Shown piece by piece: positions 4,343 through 45,987 of a DNA stretch of 64,000 bases (positions within the stretch are counted from its first letter, which is position 1; each line of letters starts with the position of its first letter). This stretch comes from an uncultured Gammaproteobacteria bacterium. Its GTDB lineage: Bacteria > Patescibacteriota > Patescibacteriia > Magasanikbacterales > UBA922. The position numbers and the translations under genes are program-made. Below the pieces are notes generated by a model. It saw nothing but the letters and a program-made list of their open reading frames with translations, had not been told where the DNA came from and made no database searches. The stretch lies in assembly GCA_964394405.1 (NCBI GenBank), contig CAYMVY010000003.1, positions 29,224-93,223 on the forward strand, in the 5' to 3' direction.

Positions 4343-4379
4343 GTAAAATTGAAAGACCCCGCATCCGAAGATGCGGGGC
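4343..4379 (-). terminator. GC-rich hairpin terminator for the minus-strand island gene
   Basis: ccccgcatc-cgaa-gatgcgggg. On the minus strand it is followed by tctttcaatttt. Confidence 0.5.
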
Positions 4380-4409
4380 TTGTCTCCTTTGCAAGAGACT
4401 GTCGGACGA

Positions 4410-5177
4410 TCAGTGGTCGAGAGCCATCCGCTGGATGGCGCTCTCGATCCGCTGACGCTCGTCCGTGTGTGTCGGGAAGAGACTGCGCCAGTGAAGGACG
4501 ATCTTGTCCATCGCCTCCTGCTCGCGCGCCTCCTTGCTCGGTTGGTGGTAGTTGGCACCCACGATCAGCGGCACTCGCAGGTCGAGCATGGTGTAGCTGT
4601 ACTCACTCAGTGCGAGCATGCCGAGGAGGAAGTCGATGTCCTCCATGCCGCCGATCGCGTCACACCTGGCGTCGAACCCACCCATGAGCGGACCGAACGC
4701 CTCGATCCGGACCAGCATCCCAGTGTTACGCGGGTGCCGGTACGATCGTCCCAGGGAGACGATGTTCCCATCCTGTCGCCCCTCGAACGAGGTGCCGACC
4801 ACGCCGACCTTGGGGTCATTGATCGCGGCGTCGAGCATGGCCTCGAGGTGCTGTCTCGTGAACTGCGCCTCGACGCTGATGTTCATGACGAAGCGGAAAC
4901 GATTCCGCTCCCGTACGTTCGCCATGAACACGGCTTTGAAACCGATGTTCAGGGCGTTCGCCCACGAGTAGCCCTCGTGCATCTCGATGAGTTGCACGTG
5001 GCCGGCTTCGATGAACCCTCCGAGGAAGCCTCGGGTAGCGCCTCTGTCCTTGGTGGCGTCCGTAACGACGATGATCTTACCGATCCCCGCGTTACACAGG
5101 CTTGAGACCTGTTTTTGGACGAATTTGTTGTTGTAGGACCGCAGAATCGCGGCCGTCTGGTCCAGTCTGTCACGCAT
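4410..5177 (-). CDS. GT-A fold (family-2-like) glycosyltransferase, encoded in a strongly GC-rich island
   Basis: GT2-like motif order IIVVTDATKD .. GYSWANALNIG .. GGFDARCDAIGGMEDIDFLLG (compare GGFDE..EDxD). The region is visibly GC-rich, with long ORFs on both strands. The antisense ORF 4371..5105 looks like low-complexity junk. Confidence 0.5.
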   Translation of the reverse strand: MRDRLDQTAAILRSYNNKFVQKQVSSLCNAGIGKIIVVTDATKDRGATRGFLGGFIEAGHVQLIEMHEGYSWANALNIGFKAVFMANVRERNRFRFVMNISVEAQFTRQHLEAMLDAAINDPKVGVVGTSFEGRQDGNIVSLGRSYRHPRNTGMLVRIEAFGPLMGGFDARCDAIGGMEDIDFLLGMLALSEYSYTMLDLRVPLIVGANYHQPSKEAREQEAMDKIVLHWRSLFPTHTDERQRIESAIQRMALDH

Positions 5178-5347: not shown

Positions 5348-5376
5348 TTGACATATTTCTCAGGCTTTGATATTAT
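5348..5376 (+). promoter_or_regulatory. Sigma70-like promoter TTGACA-17-TATTAT for rplJL
   Basis: ttgacatatttctcaggctttgatattat read directly. Confidence 0.5.
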
Positions 5377-5382
5377 CTCTTC

Positions 5383-5535
5383 ACCATAGACAGTAGCTTC
5401 CCGACAAAGTCGTGGATTAAATACGCTACCGAGGTAAACCAGTTCATCGTCAAGATGGACATCCCGACTAAGTCGGGATAAAGGTCGATATACCGTGTAC
5501 GTCTGTGGTTCAAAAAACCACATTTTTTATTTGTT
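5383..5535 (+). promoter_or_regulatory. Ribosomal protein L10 leader (autoregulatory leader with attenuator hairpin abutting the start codon)
   Basis: ~150-nt structured 5' UTR with hairpins aucccgac-uaa-gucgggau and ugugguu-caaaa-aaccaca followed by UUUUUUAUUUGUU immediately before the rplJ ATG. Position and architecture match the Firmicutes-type L10 leader. Confidence 0.45.
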
Positions 5536-6057
5536 ATGCCAAAAACTAGAGCGCAAAAAGAAGAAGCAATGCAGATTTTGGTCAATACCTTGAAACAGTC
5601 CAAGTCAGTCGTATTTGCGAACTTTCAAGGACTCAAGGTTTCTGAATCAGAAGAACTTCGACGATTGTGCCGAAAAGAAGGTGTTGAGTATGTTGCTGCC
5701 AAGAAAACTCTGGTAGCAAAAGCTCTCAAAGACGCTGGAATTGAAGCAAATCCAAAAAGTTTTGAAGGCGCAGTATCAGTGGTGTTTGGAATTCAGGATG
5801 AAGTTGCTCCTGCACAGATTCTTGCAAAATTCGCGAAAACGCATGAAGCAGTAAAACTTTTCGGCGGAATTCTCGAAGGTGCATTTATCGATGGCAAGAA
5901 AGTAACCGAACTCTCAAAACTTCCAAGCAAACAACAGCTTCTTGGTCAATTGGTGGGAACACTCAACGCTCCGGTATCCGGATTCGTGAATGTACTCGCT
6001 GGAAATCTCCGAGGACTGGTAACCGTACTTGGTGCGATCAAAGATGCAAAAGTTTAA
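5536..6057 (+). CDS. rplJ: 50S ribosomal protein L10
   Basis: MPKTRAQKEEAMQILVNTLKQSKSVVFANFQGLKV.. is typical of L10. 173 aa. Confidence 0.95.
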   Translation: MPKTRAQKEEAMQILVNTLKQSKSVVFANFQGLKVSESEELRRLCRKEGVEYVAAKKTLVAKALKDAGIEANPKSFEGAVSVVFGIQDEVAPAQILAKFAKTHEAVKLFGGILEGAFIDGKKVTELSKLPSKQQLLGQLVGTLNAPVSGFVNVLAGNLRGLVTVLGAIKDAKV

Positions 6058-33709: not shown

Positions 33710-34612
33710 ATGTTGTTTGTTATTTCAATTATACTTGCAATTATTTCCCTCATTACTATTTTAGTGATTATTTGGCGTCACTATAAACAGATTACTCTTC
33801 TCAATGTAGAATCACTTCCTTATATGCGGGAAGAAAAAAAGAAGGATGAATTTATACGAAAAAAAGCTGCACAGAAGAGTTCACAGGTACATGCTCGGGC
33901 ATATGCAGCTTTCGTTATACCTATTATTAATACGGCCACTTCAATTCAACAGCGTTTTAGACGGTTTGTGGGTATGGTTGAGCGGCGCGCCATGATGCAT
34001 GATTCTAAAAAGAGAAAATTTGAGACACCGGAGGAGGAGACTCGACGTGAACTTACGCTCCAGCAGCTGATGCTTGAGGCTGGACGAGATGTAGCGCAGG
34101 AAGACTATGAGACTGCTGAGAAGAGGTATTTGGCAGTGCTCCGACAAGACCCGAAAAATATTGAAGCGTACAAAGGTCTTGCACAGGTCTATCAGAAACA
34201 AGGTCAGTTAATTGAAGCAAAGGAGACATACCAATTCATACTTCATGTAGATCCGTCTGATGAACAGACATTGATTAAATTGGGTGACATATATGAAGAA
34301 GAGGGGAGGCTCGAAAAAGCTGTGGAATATTACGAAGCAGCTGTACTTATTAATCCGCATAATCCGCTTCGTTTTGCGAAATTGTATGACCTATTGTTTG
34401 AATTGAAACAGTATGAAACTGCGCTTGAGGCAATTCAGCAGGCCCTTGAGATTGAGCCTCAAAATCCAAAATACCTTGACAATTTCACTGAAGTAGCTAT
34501 ACTATTGAAGCAAAAAGCATTGGCTGAGAAGGGTTATCATGATCTTCGAATGATCAATCCAGAGAATCAAAAACTTCAATTATTTCGTCAAAGAATTGAC
34601 GAACTCTCGTAG
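33710..34612 (+). CDS. TM-anchored TPR-repeat protein
   Basis: N-terminal TM ISIILAIISLITILVIIW. At least 4 TPR-like units (..AEKRYLAVLRQDPKNIEAYKGLAQVYQKQGQLIEA..). Confidence 0.6.
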   Translation: MLFVISIILAIISLITILVIIWRHYKQITLLNVESLPYMREEKKKDEFIRKKAAQKSSQVHARAYAAFVIPIINTATSIQQRFRRFVGMVERRAMMHDSKKRKFETPEEETRRELTLQQLMLEAGRDVAQEDYETAEKRYLAVLRQDPKNIEAYKGLAQVYQKQGQLIEAKETYQFILHVDPSDEQTLIKLGDIYEEEGRLEKAVEYYEAAVLINPHNPLRFAKLYDLLFELKQYETALEAIQQALEIEPQNPKYLDNFTEVAILLKQKALAEKGYHDLRMINPENQKLQLFRQRIDELS

Positions 34613-34638
34613 TGGTTTTCACTTATATTTATCGTTAG

Positions 34639-34730
34639 CGAGCCGTCTCCCGCCTCCGTCCTCCGATTTGGAGGACTACGGCGGGCAGGTAGCTCAGCTC
34701 CAGTGTCTGAGCAATAGTTTTGTAGTCAGC
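34639..34730 (+). pseudogene. Degenerate 5' half-copy of tRNA-Thr(UGU) interrupted by a 36-nt GC-rich hairpin
   Basis: agcgagccgucuc repeats the flank plus acceptor 5' strand of the intact gene. Then the hairpin cccgcc..ggaggac..ggcggg. Then uagcucagcu..gagcaa..uuuugua, a mutated D-arm/anticodon loop. No 3' half. Confidence 0.4.
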
Positions 34731-34733
34731 GAG

Positions 34734-34806
34734 CCGTCTTAGCTCAGCTGGTAGAGCAACGGTTTTGTAAACCGTCGGTCCGGGGTTCGAATCCCCGAGA
34801 CGGCTC
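34734..34806 (+). tRNA. tRNA-Thr (anticodon UGU)
   Basis: Acceptor GCCGUCU/AGACGGC perfect, D GCUC/GAGC, anticodon stem ACGGU/ACCGU with loop UUUGUAA, T-arm CGGGG-UUCGAAU-CCCCG. No CCA encoded. Confidence 0.85.
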
Positions 34807-34872
34807 GCTGACTATAATCAAGATAGTTAAACGGTTTTGCTTGTCCCGATGAGCGAAAGCGATATCGGGATA

Positions 34873-34911
34873 AACCGTCGGTCCGGGGTTCGAATCCCCG
34901 AGACGGCTCGT
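34873..34911 (+). repeat. Direct duplicate of the 3' half of tRNA-Thr(UGU), from anticodon-stem 3' strand through the acceptor 3' strand
   Basis: aaaccgtcggtccggggttcgaatccccgagacggctcg is identical to positions 34771-34808. The anticodon 5' part aaacggttttg lies at ~34830, separated by a 31-nt hairpin cttgtcccgatgagcgaaagcgatatcggga. Confidence 0.55.
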
Positions 34912-34940
34912 TGATGATAAATTGTTTTCTGTACTATTAT

Positions 34941-35025
34941 GGGTCGATTCCCGAGCGGTCAAAGGGGGCAGACTGTAAATCTGCTGGCTCAGCCTTCGTA
35001 GGTTCGAATCCTACTCGGCCCACCA
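34941..35025 (+). tRNA. tRNA-Tyr (anticodon GUA), long variable arm, CCA encoded
   Basis: Acceptor GGGUCGA/UCGGCCC, anticodon stem GCAGA/UCUGC with loop CUGUAAA, extra arm, T-arm GUAGG-UUCGAAU-CCUAC, ACCA 3' end. Confidence 0.8.
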
Positions 35026-35031
35026 AATTAG

Positions 35032-35057
35032 AAAATCGCTTAATTAAGCGATTTTTG
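35032..35057 (+). terminator. Rho-independent terminator after the tRNA cluster
   Basis: aaaatcgctt-aatt-aagcgatttttg. Confidence 0.6.
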
Positions 35058-45638: not shown

Positions 45639-45663
45639 ATACACTTGTTGATTAAGGGGGGGT

Positions 45664-45912
45664 ATGTATTATGTTTATCTGTTGAAAAGTTTCAAAGATA
45701 ATGGATTGTATATAGGATATACCCATGATTTACGTCGGAGATTTCAAGAACATACTGAAGGCGAGGTTGATTCTACAATGCATCGAAGGCCGTTAATACT
45801 TCTCTATTACGAAGCTTATGAGATATGTGAACGAGCACAAGAAAGAGAAAGAAAGTTGAAAAAATTTGGTTCCGCGTATACTGCACTTTTAAAACGTTTG
45901 AAAATTAAGTAA
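45664..45912 (+). CDS. Standalone GIY-YIG nuclease superfamily protein (UPF0213/YhbQ-like, 82 aa)
   Basis: YVYLLKSFKDNGLYIGYTHDLRRRFQEH..G...T.....P..LLYYE matches the GIY..YIG..R..H..E core. AT-rich (host-like) composition. The stop lies 5 nt before tRNA-Trp. Confidence 0.75.
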   Translation: MYYVYLLKSFKDNGLYIGYTHDLRRRFQEHTEGEVDSTMHRRPLILLYYEAYEICERAQERERKLKKFGSAYTALLKRLKIK

Positions 45913-45916
45913 ACAT

Positions 45917-45987
45917 GGGCGCGTGGTGAAATGGTATCACTAAGGTCTCCAAAACCTTCGTCGTAGGTTCGATTCCTACCGCGCCTG
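45917..45987 (+). tRNA. tRNA-Trp (anticodon CCA)
   Basis: Acceptor GGGCGCG/CGCGCCU (G1-U72), D GUGA/UCAC, anticodon stem AAGGU/ACCUU with loop CUCCAAA, T-arm GUAGG-UUCGAUU-CCUAC. Confidence 0.85.

What the first reader, a model, noticed from the sequence alone, without database searches (positions are those of the whole stretch)
34639..34911. tRNA-Thr(UGU) flanked by a decayed 5' half-copy and an exact 3' half-copy, each interrupted by a different GC hairpin
Upstream of the intact tRNA lies a copy of its leader plus acceptor 5' strand (agcgagccgtctc), a 36-nt hairpin (cccgcc..ggaggac..ggcggg) and a mutated D-arm/anticodon-loop remnant. Downstream lies a perfect 39-nt copy of the tRNA 3' half. 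Its anticodon stem-loop is present but split after U34-G35 by a 31-nt hairpin (cuugucccgaugagcgaaagcgauaucggga), and it has no 5' half. A 3'-half tRNA direct repeat is the classic attL/attR footprint of integrase-mediated insertion, and the 5' remnant suggests a second, older event. A split or intron-containing tRNA is less likely because no matching 5' acceptor exists for the third piece.
Basis: partly seen in the sequence, partly recalled or inferred. Interest (0 to 1): 0.6.

Follow-up and report, generated by a model that had tools for sequence, protein, structure and literature searches.

The report
Working tRNA nested inside broken copy
An intact threonine tRNA gene of a Patescibacteria (CPR) bacterium sits inside a second, disrupted copy of itself, so the transcript is predicted to fold as a tRNA within a tRNA; the insert also carries a small hairpin that recurs, with both stem arms identical, next to partial tRNA copies in Bacteroidota.

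Summary
An intact tRNA-Thr(UGU) lies at 34733-34805. Upstream is a 5' partial copy with a 37-nt GC hairpin. Downstream is an exact 40-nt 3' copy whose anticodon loop is split after G35 by a 31-nt hairpin.

The two partial copies are not separate scars. They are the two halves of one outer tRNA-like cloverleaf, closed by a 23-bp leader-trailer helix, that encloses the intact gene and its own 20-bp helix (MFE -160.7 kcal/mol, z -12.4).

The outer flanks match the plain single gene of the closest relative (L029). Twelve related genomes, including the closest sisters, have a plain gene. One other lineage (L005) carries the same composite insert, with compensatory changes in the inner helix and in the hairpin.

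No recombinase or cargo is present; only 62 nt separate the 3' repeats.

The anticodon-loop hairpin is a conserved motif. It is the 3' hairpin of a covarying ~73-nt module, absent from Rfam, that sits in truncated tRNA-Asp and tRNA-Phe copies upstream of intact tRNAs in Bacteroidota.

Best reading: a small, self-healing, gain-and-loss insertion in the tRNA gene. The inner pre-tRNA supplies function. The outer shell is non-decoding. The hairpin's role is unknown.

The parts
34476..34503 (+). Promoter-like site (TTGACA-16-TATACT, 11/12) inside the 3' end of the TPR ORF. It is a candidate start of the tRNA-Thr/tRNA-Tyr transcript.
   Evidence: The same letters are present in L005. This is a consensus match only.
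34627..34641 (+). Outer leader strand. It pairs with the outer trailer 34908-34922.
   Evidence: Inverted repeat I1 and the MFE fold. It is identical to the leader of the plain gene in L029.
34642..34648 (+). Outer acceptor 5' strand GCCGTCT.
34649..34689 (+). Insert 1: a 37-nt GC hairpin (CCCGCC UCC GUCCUCC GAUUU GGAGGAC UAC GGCGGG) plus CAGG, placed between tRNA nt 7 and 8.
   Evidence: I6. Unique in the window. Absent from plain relatives and from L005.
34690..34713 (+). Outer D arm with a remodelled loop (TAGCTCAG CTCCAGTGT CTGAGCA). The G18 G19 pair is missing.
   Evidence: The derived loop letters CTC..CA(G/A)(T/G)GTC(T/C) are shared with L005.
34714..34719 (+). 5' linker ATAGTT.
34720..34732 (+). 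Inner leader strand. It pairs with 34805-34817 and extends the acceptor stem to 20 bp.
   Evidence: I3, 95% complementary. Covariation in alignment A1.
34733..34805 (+). Intact inner tRNA-Thr(UGU).
   Evidence: ARAGORN. Rfam RF00005 at 72.2 bits. Identical to the plain genes of L002, L029 and L037.
34805..34817 (+). Inner trailer strand (discriminator U plus CGCTGACTATAA).
   Evidence: I3.
34818..34829 (+). 3' linker TCAAGATAGTTA.
   Evidence: About 40% identical to the L005 linker.
34830..34839 (+). Outer anticodon-stem 5' strand plus loop nt 32-35 (AACGGTTTTG).
   Evidence: D6.
34840..34870 (+). Insert 3, 'hairpin B': CUUG UCCCGAU GA GC GAAA GC GA U AUCGGGA. It converts the anticodon arm into a roughly 20-bp rod.
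   Evidence: Conserved in L005 with a G-C to A-U swap. Matches positions 43-70 of model R1 at 28.5 bits. Its stem arms are identical in 23 metagenome loci.
34871..34907 (+). Outer 3' half: loop UAA, anticodon-stem 3' strand, variable loop, T arm and acceptor 3' strand. It is 100% identical to the inner copy.
   Evidence: D1.
34908..34922 (+). Outer trailer strand (TCGTTGATGATAAAT).
   Evidence: I1. Identical to the trailer of plain L029.
34941..35025 (+). tRNA-Tyr(GUA), the next gene of the same unit, followed by a perfect 12+12 palindrome at 35032-35055 (likely terminator).
   Evidence: I7.

Best explanation
The resident tRNA-Thr(UGU) gene has been broken by a small composite insert of about 195 nt that carries its own complete pre-tRNA-Thr. 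I call this a 'self-healing' insertion.

**Shown**
- The outer flanks are those of the ancestral resident gene.
- The insert lies wholly inside the tRNA coding sequence.
- A homologous composite insert exists in one other lineage.
- Close sisters of both carriers are plain.
- The transcript is predicted to fold as a tRNA inside a tRNA-like shell.
- In this clade the leader-trailer helix of tRNA-Thr is a conserved, covarying feature.

**Inferred**
- The unit is transcribed from a promoter in the end of the TPR gene together with tRNA-Tyr.
- The inner pre-tRNA is freed through its 20-bp leader-trailer stem by a double-strand-specific cut such as RNase III, followed by RNase P and 3' trimming. 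It supplies all tRNA-Thr(UGU) function.
- The outer shell keeps an acceptor/T-arm minihelix but cannot decode. Its D loop lacks G18 G19 and its anticodon loop is replaced by a rod.
- The insert is gained by recombination or homing that uses the tRNA-identical ends (17 nt on the left, 40 nt on the right) as homology. It is lost by recombination between the inner and outer repeats.
- Hairpin B is the conserved cis element of whatever process creates or maintains such partial tRNA copies. Its molecular partner is unknown.
For: **Nested fold.** The MFE of 34620-34930 is -160.7 kcal/mol with z -12.4, and 0 of 100 shuffles do as well. The L005 locus gives the same topology with z -6.4.

**Outer equals resident.** The window's outer leader and trailer are identical to the flanks of the plain gene in L029, whose TPR protein is 87% identical. 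The L005 outer leader and trailer resemble those of plain L037 and L002.

**Presence and absence.** L001, L002, L029-L031, L033-L037, L040 and L041 are plain. L005 is nested although its TPR protein is 93.5% identical and its DNA 82% identical to plain L002.

**Homology of the two inserts.** Both place the inner gene after the D arm and the hairpin at 35/36, and both share the derived D-loop letters.

**Selection on the helices.**
- In alignment A1, 7 of the 15 leader-trailer pairs change on both sides, and 0 of 500 shuffles reach the observed score.
- Three double compensatory changes separate the window and L005 inner stems.
- Of the window's six tRNAs, only tRNA-Thr(UGU) has such a helix.

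**Hairpin B under constraint.** It is 27/31 identical between the window and L005 with a compensatory swap, while the adjacent linkers are near random.

**Outer shell not a normal tRNA.** After the three inserts are removed in silico, ARAGORN misfolds the D and anticodon region.
Against: - Only two nested loci are known, and there are no expression data.
- The identity of the outer and inner tRNA segments could reflect gene conversion rather than neutrality or selection.
- The direction of change cannot be proven for L005. Plain genes such as L002 and L037, which lack the helix, could be collapsed nested loci.
- A 17-nt left homology arm is short for RecA-type recombination.
- No enzyme for gain has been identified.
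- If the outer shell were merely tolerated junk, the stable GC hairpins in a 41% GC genome and the cross-phylum conservation of hairpin B would be unexpected. Some function or cis role is therefore being assumed without identification.
Confidence: 0.5

Rival explanations
1. The outer shell is itself a functional tRNA-like RNA or processing scaffold. The acceptor/T-arm minihelix recruits tRNA enzymes, and hairpin B (with the 5' hairpin) binds a conserved partner. Nesting couples its production to the tRNA or controls tRNA-Thr maturation.
For: - The outer acceptor, D stem, T arm and hairpin B are conserved between the window and L005, while the linkers are scrambled.
- The hairpin B stem arms are identical across two phyla.
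- The Bacteroidota module shows strong covariation: 9 of 11 pairs in hairpin A, with 0 of 500 shuffles reaching the score.
- The insert sites recur in both phyla: nt 7/8 and the D loop.
Against: - Close sisters do without it.
- The 5' hairpin differs in place and sequence between the two nested loci.
- Conservation of the tRNA-like parts can come from gene conversion with the inner copy.
- The Bacteroidota copies have no 3' partner.
- No partner protein is known.
Confidence: 0.22
2. One reading: the pieces are attL/attR-type scars of tyrosine-integrase elements that integrated into the tRNA gene, once at the anticodon loop and once, earlier, at the 5' side. The elements were later deleted.
For: - There is a direct repeat of the tRNA 3' part starting at the anticodon loop (D1).
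- Relatives are plain.
- tRNA gene fragments are commonly produced by integrating elements (PMC9897764).
Against: - Only 62 nt lie between the repeats, in both the window and L005, with no cargo.
- No recombinase domain was found in the ORFs tested.
- The sequence next to the intact gene pairs with the inner leader and shows compensatory changes, which a decayed element arm would not.
- The 5' and 3' pieces travel together.
Confidence: 0.1
3. Tandem triplication of the whole pre-tRNA unit was followed by deletion of the 3' part of copy 1 and the 5' part of copy 3, plus random hairpin insertions.
For: The repeat spacings of 91 and 103 nt are close to one unit length.
Against: - The inner and outer leader/trailer are different allele types, not copies of one another. 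The outer equals L029; the inner has CAGCGA/TCGCTG as in L005.
- No relative has two or three tandem genes.
- The same complementary truncations occur in two lineages.
Confidence: 0.06
4. The outer copy is a multi-intron or split tRNA gene whose three inserts, including the inner tRNA, are removed to give a second mature tRNA-Thr.
For: - A complete set of tRNA segments is present in the right order.
- Long helices bring the halves together, as in archaeal split tRNAs.
Against: - The host is a bacterium.
- No bulge-helix-bulge motif is present at any junction. The anticodon insert forms a continuous rod with one 5-nt bulge.
- The 31-nt insert is far too small for a group I intron, and no intron family hit was found.
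- The 'spliced' product has a defective D loop.
- The L005 outer anticodon stem keeps only 3 of 5 pairs.
Confidence: 0.03

Closest known systems
tRNA gene fragments left by integrating genetic elements (attL/attR duplications; reviewed for prokaryotes in PMC9897764)
   Same: A partial, non-canonical tRNA copy sits next to an intact gene. There is a direct repeat of the 3' part starting in the anticodon loop. Presence and absence vary among relatives.
   Different: There is no integrase and no cargo. A 5' fragment is also present. The two fragments pair into one shell around the intact gene. Structured, conserved hairpins sit inside the fragments.
Archaeal disrupted tRNA genes: multiple-intron, split and tri-split tRNAs (own knowledge; summarised in PMC10714607)
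   Same: The tRNA body is interrupted at several non-canonical positions. Complementary flanking sequences hold the halves together. The inserts behave as mobile units.
   Different: The host is bacterial. There are no BHB motifs. One 'intron' is a whole working tRNA. The outer product is probably not functional.
Leader-trailer processing stems of bacterial stable-RNA precursors (RNase III stems around 16S/23S rRNA; own knowledge)
   Same: Near-perfect duplexes of 20 and 23 bp, formed by the 5' and 3' flanks, enclose a stable RNA and covary.
   Different: They enclose a single tRNA and continue its acceptor stem. Cleavage is untested.
Free-standing GIY-YIG homing endonuclease SegB of phage T4, which cuts tRNA genes (PMC2330249)
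   Same: Small GIY-YIG genes sit next to tRNA genes here (window 45652-45909, L029, L010). Such an enzyme could make the break that is repaired into a partial duplication.
   Different: The proteins here are 80-87 aa catalytic domains with no DNA-binding domain. No link to this locus has been shown.
GOLLD/ROOL large ornate RNAs that often embed or adjoin tRNAs (own knowledge)
   Same: A tRNA is enclosed within a larger structured RNA.
   Different: Those RNAs are 600-800 nt and unrelated in sequence. There is no Rfam hit here.

Membership tests
Integrase att-site scar in a tRNA gene | Direct repeat of the tRNA 3' segment at both ends of the inserted DNA | tested here: met
   The 40-nt exact repeat 34768-34807 / 34871-34910.
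Integrase att-site scar in a tRNA gene | Recombinase gene and cargo between or next to the repeats | tested here: not met
   Only 62 nt lie between the repeats. No integrase or recombinase Pfam domain was found in 30 window ORFs or in the neighbouring genes.
Archaeal-type spliced or split tRNA | Bulge-helix-bulge motif at each exon-insert junction | tested here: not met
   The fold shows continuous helices and a single 5-nt bulge at the anticodon insert, and perfect 20-bp stems at the inner gene.
Archaeal-type spliced or split tRNA | A canonical tRNA results once the inserts are removed | tested here: not met
   ARAGORN on the in-silico spliced outer copy misfolds the D and anticodon arms, and G18 G19 are missing.
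Archaeal-type spliced or split tRNA | Splicing endonuclease and ligase encoded by the host | not tested
   Only a 64-kb window is available.
Bacterial group I intron in a tRNA anticodon loop | Intron of at least ~200 nt with a P1-P9 core | tested here: not met
   The insert is 31 nt. There is no intron family among the Rfam matches even at E<=10.
RNase III-type leader-trailer processing stem | A duplex of about 20 bp formed by the flanks of a stable RNA, kept by compensatory change | tested here: met
   I1 and I3. In A1, 7 pairs change on both sides and 0 of 500 shuffles reach the score.
RNase III-type leader-trailer processing stem | Cleavage within the stem by RNase III | not testable with these tools
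   Needs in vitro cleavage or end-mapping.
Bacteroidota tRNA-leader module defined here (model R1) | CCGUAG + hairpin A with loop GACGAAGGA + CAAG + hairpin B, placed inside a truncated tRNA copy upstream of an intact tRNA | tested here: inconclusive
   The window and L005 match only hairpin B (model positions 43-70; 28.5 and 30.1 bits). The 5' inserts are a different hairpin followed by CA(A/G)G at the same tRNA sites.
tmRNA | Rfam RF00023 at gathering score | tested here: not met
   21 bits against a gathering score of 47, covering the T arm and rod only.

The most novel reading that the evidence does not exclude
Hairpin B, together with the Bacteroidota hairpin A/B module, is the signature of an undescribed system that acts on tRNA loops (nt 7/8, D loop, anticodon loop) in distant bacterial phyla. 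It could be a tiny non-autonomous mobile insert that creates self-healing partial tRNA duplications. Alternatively it could be a protein-binding tag that turns spare tRNA copies into functional tRNA-like RNAs. On either reading, the nested tRNA-in-tRNA is its Patescibacteria form.
Probability: 0.25. Interest if true: 0.85.

Novelty: new variant of a known kind. Interest (0 to 1): 0.6.

Why it matters
- Partial tRNA copies are normally written off as integrase scars. Here they form a nested, structured unit that comes and goes between close relatives without any recombinase.
- The unit carries a hairpin whose stem arms are identical in Patescibacteria and Bacteroidota.
- If the hairpin marks a mobile or RNA-level system aimed at tRNA loops, it would be a new way in which essential tRNA genes are invaded and repaired in bacteria. 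It would also be a bacterial counterpart to the disrupted tRNA genes of archaea.
- On the practical side, such loci mislead tRNA annotation and att-site prediction.

Tried and rejected
**Searches that found nothing or little**
- A scan of JGI metagenomes for the duplicated 3' half gave 0 hits.
- The same pattern in GTDB genomes gave only L005.
- The hairpin pattern in viral contigs gave 0 hits.
- BLAST of the Bacteroidota module against phage and plasmid records found no match.
- Rfam reported nothing but tRNAs for the window locus or the module loci, at gathering score or at permissive E-values. There is a sub-threshold tmRNA-like hit on the T arm and rod.

**Motifs considered by eye for hairpin B and rejected**
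- Kink-turn: extra UAUC on the non-bulged strand.
- Hammerhead core: two core mismatches and the wrong topology.
- BHB, group II domain V and the Ro-binding Y-RNA helix.

**An argument I dropped**
- I first took the pairing-preserving differences between the inner and outer helices as proof of selection on the outer helix after duplication.
- I dropped this once L029 showed that the outer helix is simply the resident allele.

**Other dead ends**
- The apparent anticodon-loop remnant ATAGTTTTGTA in piece 1 is not kept in L005 (ACGAAATTATC), so it is not a robust feature.
- Hairpin-pattern hits in high-GC coding DNA (L007, L015, L017, L023, L025, L028) and the antisense hit between rplJ and rplL in L022 were treated as chance.
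- Literature searches found no description of nested tRNA genes or of this module.

Full report
**What is in the sequence**

ARAGORN and Rfam find one tRNA-Thr(UGU) at 34733-34805 and a tRNA-Tyr at 34941-35025.
- A second copy of AGCGA+GCCGTCT lies upstream.
- It is followed by a 37-nt GC hairpin (34649-34685).
- A D-arm-like hairpin follows (34690-34713).
- Downstream is an exact 40-nt copy of the tRNA 3' part (34871-34910 equals 34768-34807).
- That copy is preceded by a second AACGGTTTTG and a 31-nt hairpin that splits the anticodon loop after G35.
- Both hairpins are unique in the 64-kb window.

**The pieces belong together**

The intact gene's leader and trailer are complementary. This extends its acceptor stem to a 20-bp helix (34720-34739 with 34798-34817). 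The leader of the upstream piece pairs with the trailer of the downstream piece over 23 bp (34627-34649 with 34900-34922), and every position is a standard or G-U pair.

The minimum-free-energy fold of 34620-34930 is a tRNA cloverleaf nested inside a second cloverleaf, at -160.7 kcal/mol with z -12.4. The outer cloverleaf carries three inserts:
- the hairpin after nt 7;
- the whole inner pre-tRNA between the D arm and the anticodon stem;
- the hairpin in the anticodon loop, which turns that arm into a rod of about 20 bp.

**Host and relatives**

The flanking sigma factor and TPR protein place the window in Patescibacteria, with the named hits being Parcubacteria- and Magasanikbacteria-like. 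I fetched 13 related genomes with the same gene order: M16 peptidase, TIM, TPR protein, tRNA-Thr, tRNA-Tyr.

Twelve have one plain tRNA-Thr: L001, L002, L029-L031, L033-L037, L040 and L041.

The closest, L029 (TPR 87% identical), has a plain gene. Its leader TTTATCGTTAGCGA and trailer TCGTTGATGATAAAT are the window's outer leader and trailer. The outer copy is therefore the resident gene, and about 195 nt have been added inside it.

**A second nested locus**

A scan of one genome per GTDB species for two 3' halves 65-95 nt apart found one locus, L005. It has the same architecture:
- an outer acceptor strand and a D arm with a hairpin, here inside the D loop;
- a linker;
- an inner tRNA with a perfect 20-bp helix;
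- a linker;
- an anticodon arm split at 35/36 by a 30-nt version of the same hairpin;
- an identical 3' half.

L005 is 93.5% identical in TPR protein and 82% identical in DNA to L002, which is plain. Its outer flanks resemble those of plain L002 and L037.

The window and L005 share derived letters in the outer D loop. The two inserts are therefore homologous, not two accidents.

Their inner helices differ by three double compensatory changes (-7/+7, -8/+8, -9/+9). The hairpin differs by a G-C to A-U swap in its apical stem. The linkers between them are near random.

**The leader-trailer helix is a clade feature**

In an alignment of 11 leader+tRNA+trailer sequences, 8 keep a 13-15-bp extension. 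Seven pairs change on both sides, and 0 of 500 shuffles reach the observed covariation. None of the other five tRNAs in the window has such a helix.

The inner cassettes of the window and L005 share CAGCGA/TCGCTG, which differs from the resident type TTAGCGA/TCGTTGA. The L005 inner leader is one base away from the plain leader of L040. The inner gene is therefore a different allele, not a local copy of the outer one.

**The anticodon-loop hairpin is a known-nowhere, found-widely motif**

A metagenome scan for GTCCCGATGA-N5-12-GATATCGGGAT returned 23 loci. About 14 are Bacteroidota loci with one recurring arrangement:
- a tRNA 5' fragment (acceptor strand and D-stem start of tRNA-Asp, tRNA-Phe or others);
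- then CCGUAG, hairpin A with loop GACGAAGGA, CAAG and hairpin B;
- then a short spacer;
- then the intact tRNA.

The unit is sometimes repeated in tandem (L011, L013, L016). The module sits either in the D loop or after nt 7. These are the same two sites as the 5' hairpins of L005 and the window, and those hairpins are likewise followed by CA(A/G)G.

Hairpin A covaries strongly: 9 of 11 pairs change on both sides, and 0 of 500 shuffles reach the score.

Rfam 15 has no family for it at E<=1. A covariance model of the module (R1) matches the window and L005 only over hairpin B (28.5 and 30.1 bits) and finds no other copy in the window.

**What it is not**

- **Integrase scar.** No integrase or recombinase domain was found in 30 window ORFs or in the neighbours, which are housekeeping genes. 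Only 62 nt separate the 3' repeats.
- **Spliced tRNA or intron.** No bulge-helix-bulge motif and no intron family were found. The outer copy with its inserts removed in silico is still not a normal tRNA.
- **Assembly artefact.** Two independent assemblies of different species show the same design.

**Most likely mechanism**

A promoter-like site lies in the end of the TPR ORF (34476-34503), and a palindrome follows tRNA-Tyr (35032-35055). Together they bracket one transcript.
- I infer that the inner pre-tRNA is released through its long stem and matured normally.
- I infer that the outer shell is a non-decoding by-product that keeps an acceptor/T-arm minihelix.
- The insert behaves as a self-healing unit: it breaks the resident gene but brings a working one.
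- It can enter a plain gene by recombination within the tRNA-identical ends and leave by recombination between the inner and outer repeats. This fits its patchy distribution.

What makes the break, and what hairpin B binds, remain unknown. Small GIY-YIG genes next to tRNA genes are a lead, with T4 SegB as the precedent for a GIY-YIG enzyme that cuts tRNA genes (PMC2330249):
- window 45652-45909, before tRNA-Trp;
- L029, after tRNA-Tyr;
- L010, between tRNA-Asp fragments.

**Verdict**

The integrase-scar reading is only partly supported.

The locus is a nested tRNA-in-tRNA created by a small composite insert that carries a cross-phylum hairpin motif. It is a new variant among disrupted or duplicated tRNA genes. 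The function of the shell and the hairpin is unresolved.

Noticed in passing
L008-L014, L016, L018, L019, L021, L024, L026, L027 (e.g. L027 1145-1217 minus strand): A ~73-nt structured module (CCGUAG, hairpin A with loop GACGAAGGA, CAAG, hairpin B) sits inside a truncated tRNA-Asp or tRNA-Phe 5' copy just upstream of the intact tRNA in Bacteroidota. It is sometimes tandemly repeated. It covaries strongly and has no Rfam family.
   Followed up: partly
window 45652-45909 (+), next to tRNA-Trp 45917-45987; also L029 1910-2161, L010 700-1026, L024 4282-4680, L021 8670-9441: Small (80-87 aa) GIY-YIG catalytic-domain ORFs lie directly beside tRNA genes in both the Patescibacteria and the Bacteroidota loci (Pfam PF01541, E 1e-13 to 1e-17). 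They are possible tRNA-gene nucleases.
   Followed up: partly
window 34720-34817 and the orthologous genes in L001, L029, L030, L031, L033, L040: tRNA-Thr(UGU), alone among the window's six tRNAs, has a 13-15-bp leader-trailer helix that continues the acceptor stem. The helix is conserved with compensatory changes across the clade but absent in L002, L037 and L041.
   Followed up: yes
window 34476-34503: A near-consensus sigma-70-type promoter (TTGACA-16-TATACT) lies inside the last 140 nt of the TPR ORF and is conserved in L005. It probably drives the tRNA-Thr/tRNA-Tyr unit.
   Followed up: no
L010 554-1108: This tRNA-Asp region holds three tRNA pieces: a 5' copy with the module in its D loop; a second copy broken after the anticodon by a GC hairpin (TCTCGCCTGAGGCGAGA) and followed by a T-arm scrap and the GIY-YIG ORF; then the intact gene.
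   Followed up: no
L032, L034, L035, L036, L038, L040 (contig ends): Six assemblies of relatives stop inside the tRNA-Thr gene. Two of them stop at or next to nt 35, where hairpin B is inserted in the nested loci. This may reflect strain polymorphism at this locus.
   Followed up: no
window 5366-5538: A sub-threshold match to the ribosomal protein L10 leader (RF00557, 40.6 bits against a gathering score of 44). The nearby region 4371-5177 is GC-rich (50%), has overlapping ORFs on both strands and gives no Pfam hit.
   Followed up: no
L013 versus L024 (minus strand, upstream of tRNA-Phe): Two near-identical loci differ in the copy number of the fragment+module unit (two versus one). Both are preceded by a run of CTAAACACCTAAAC-like short repeats.
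   Followed up: no
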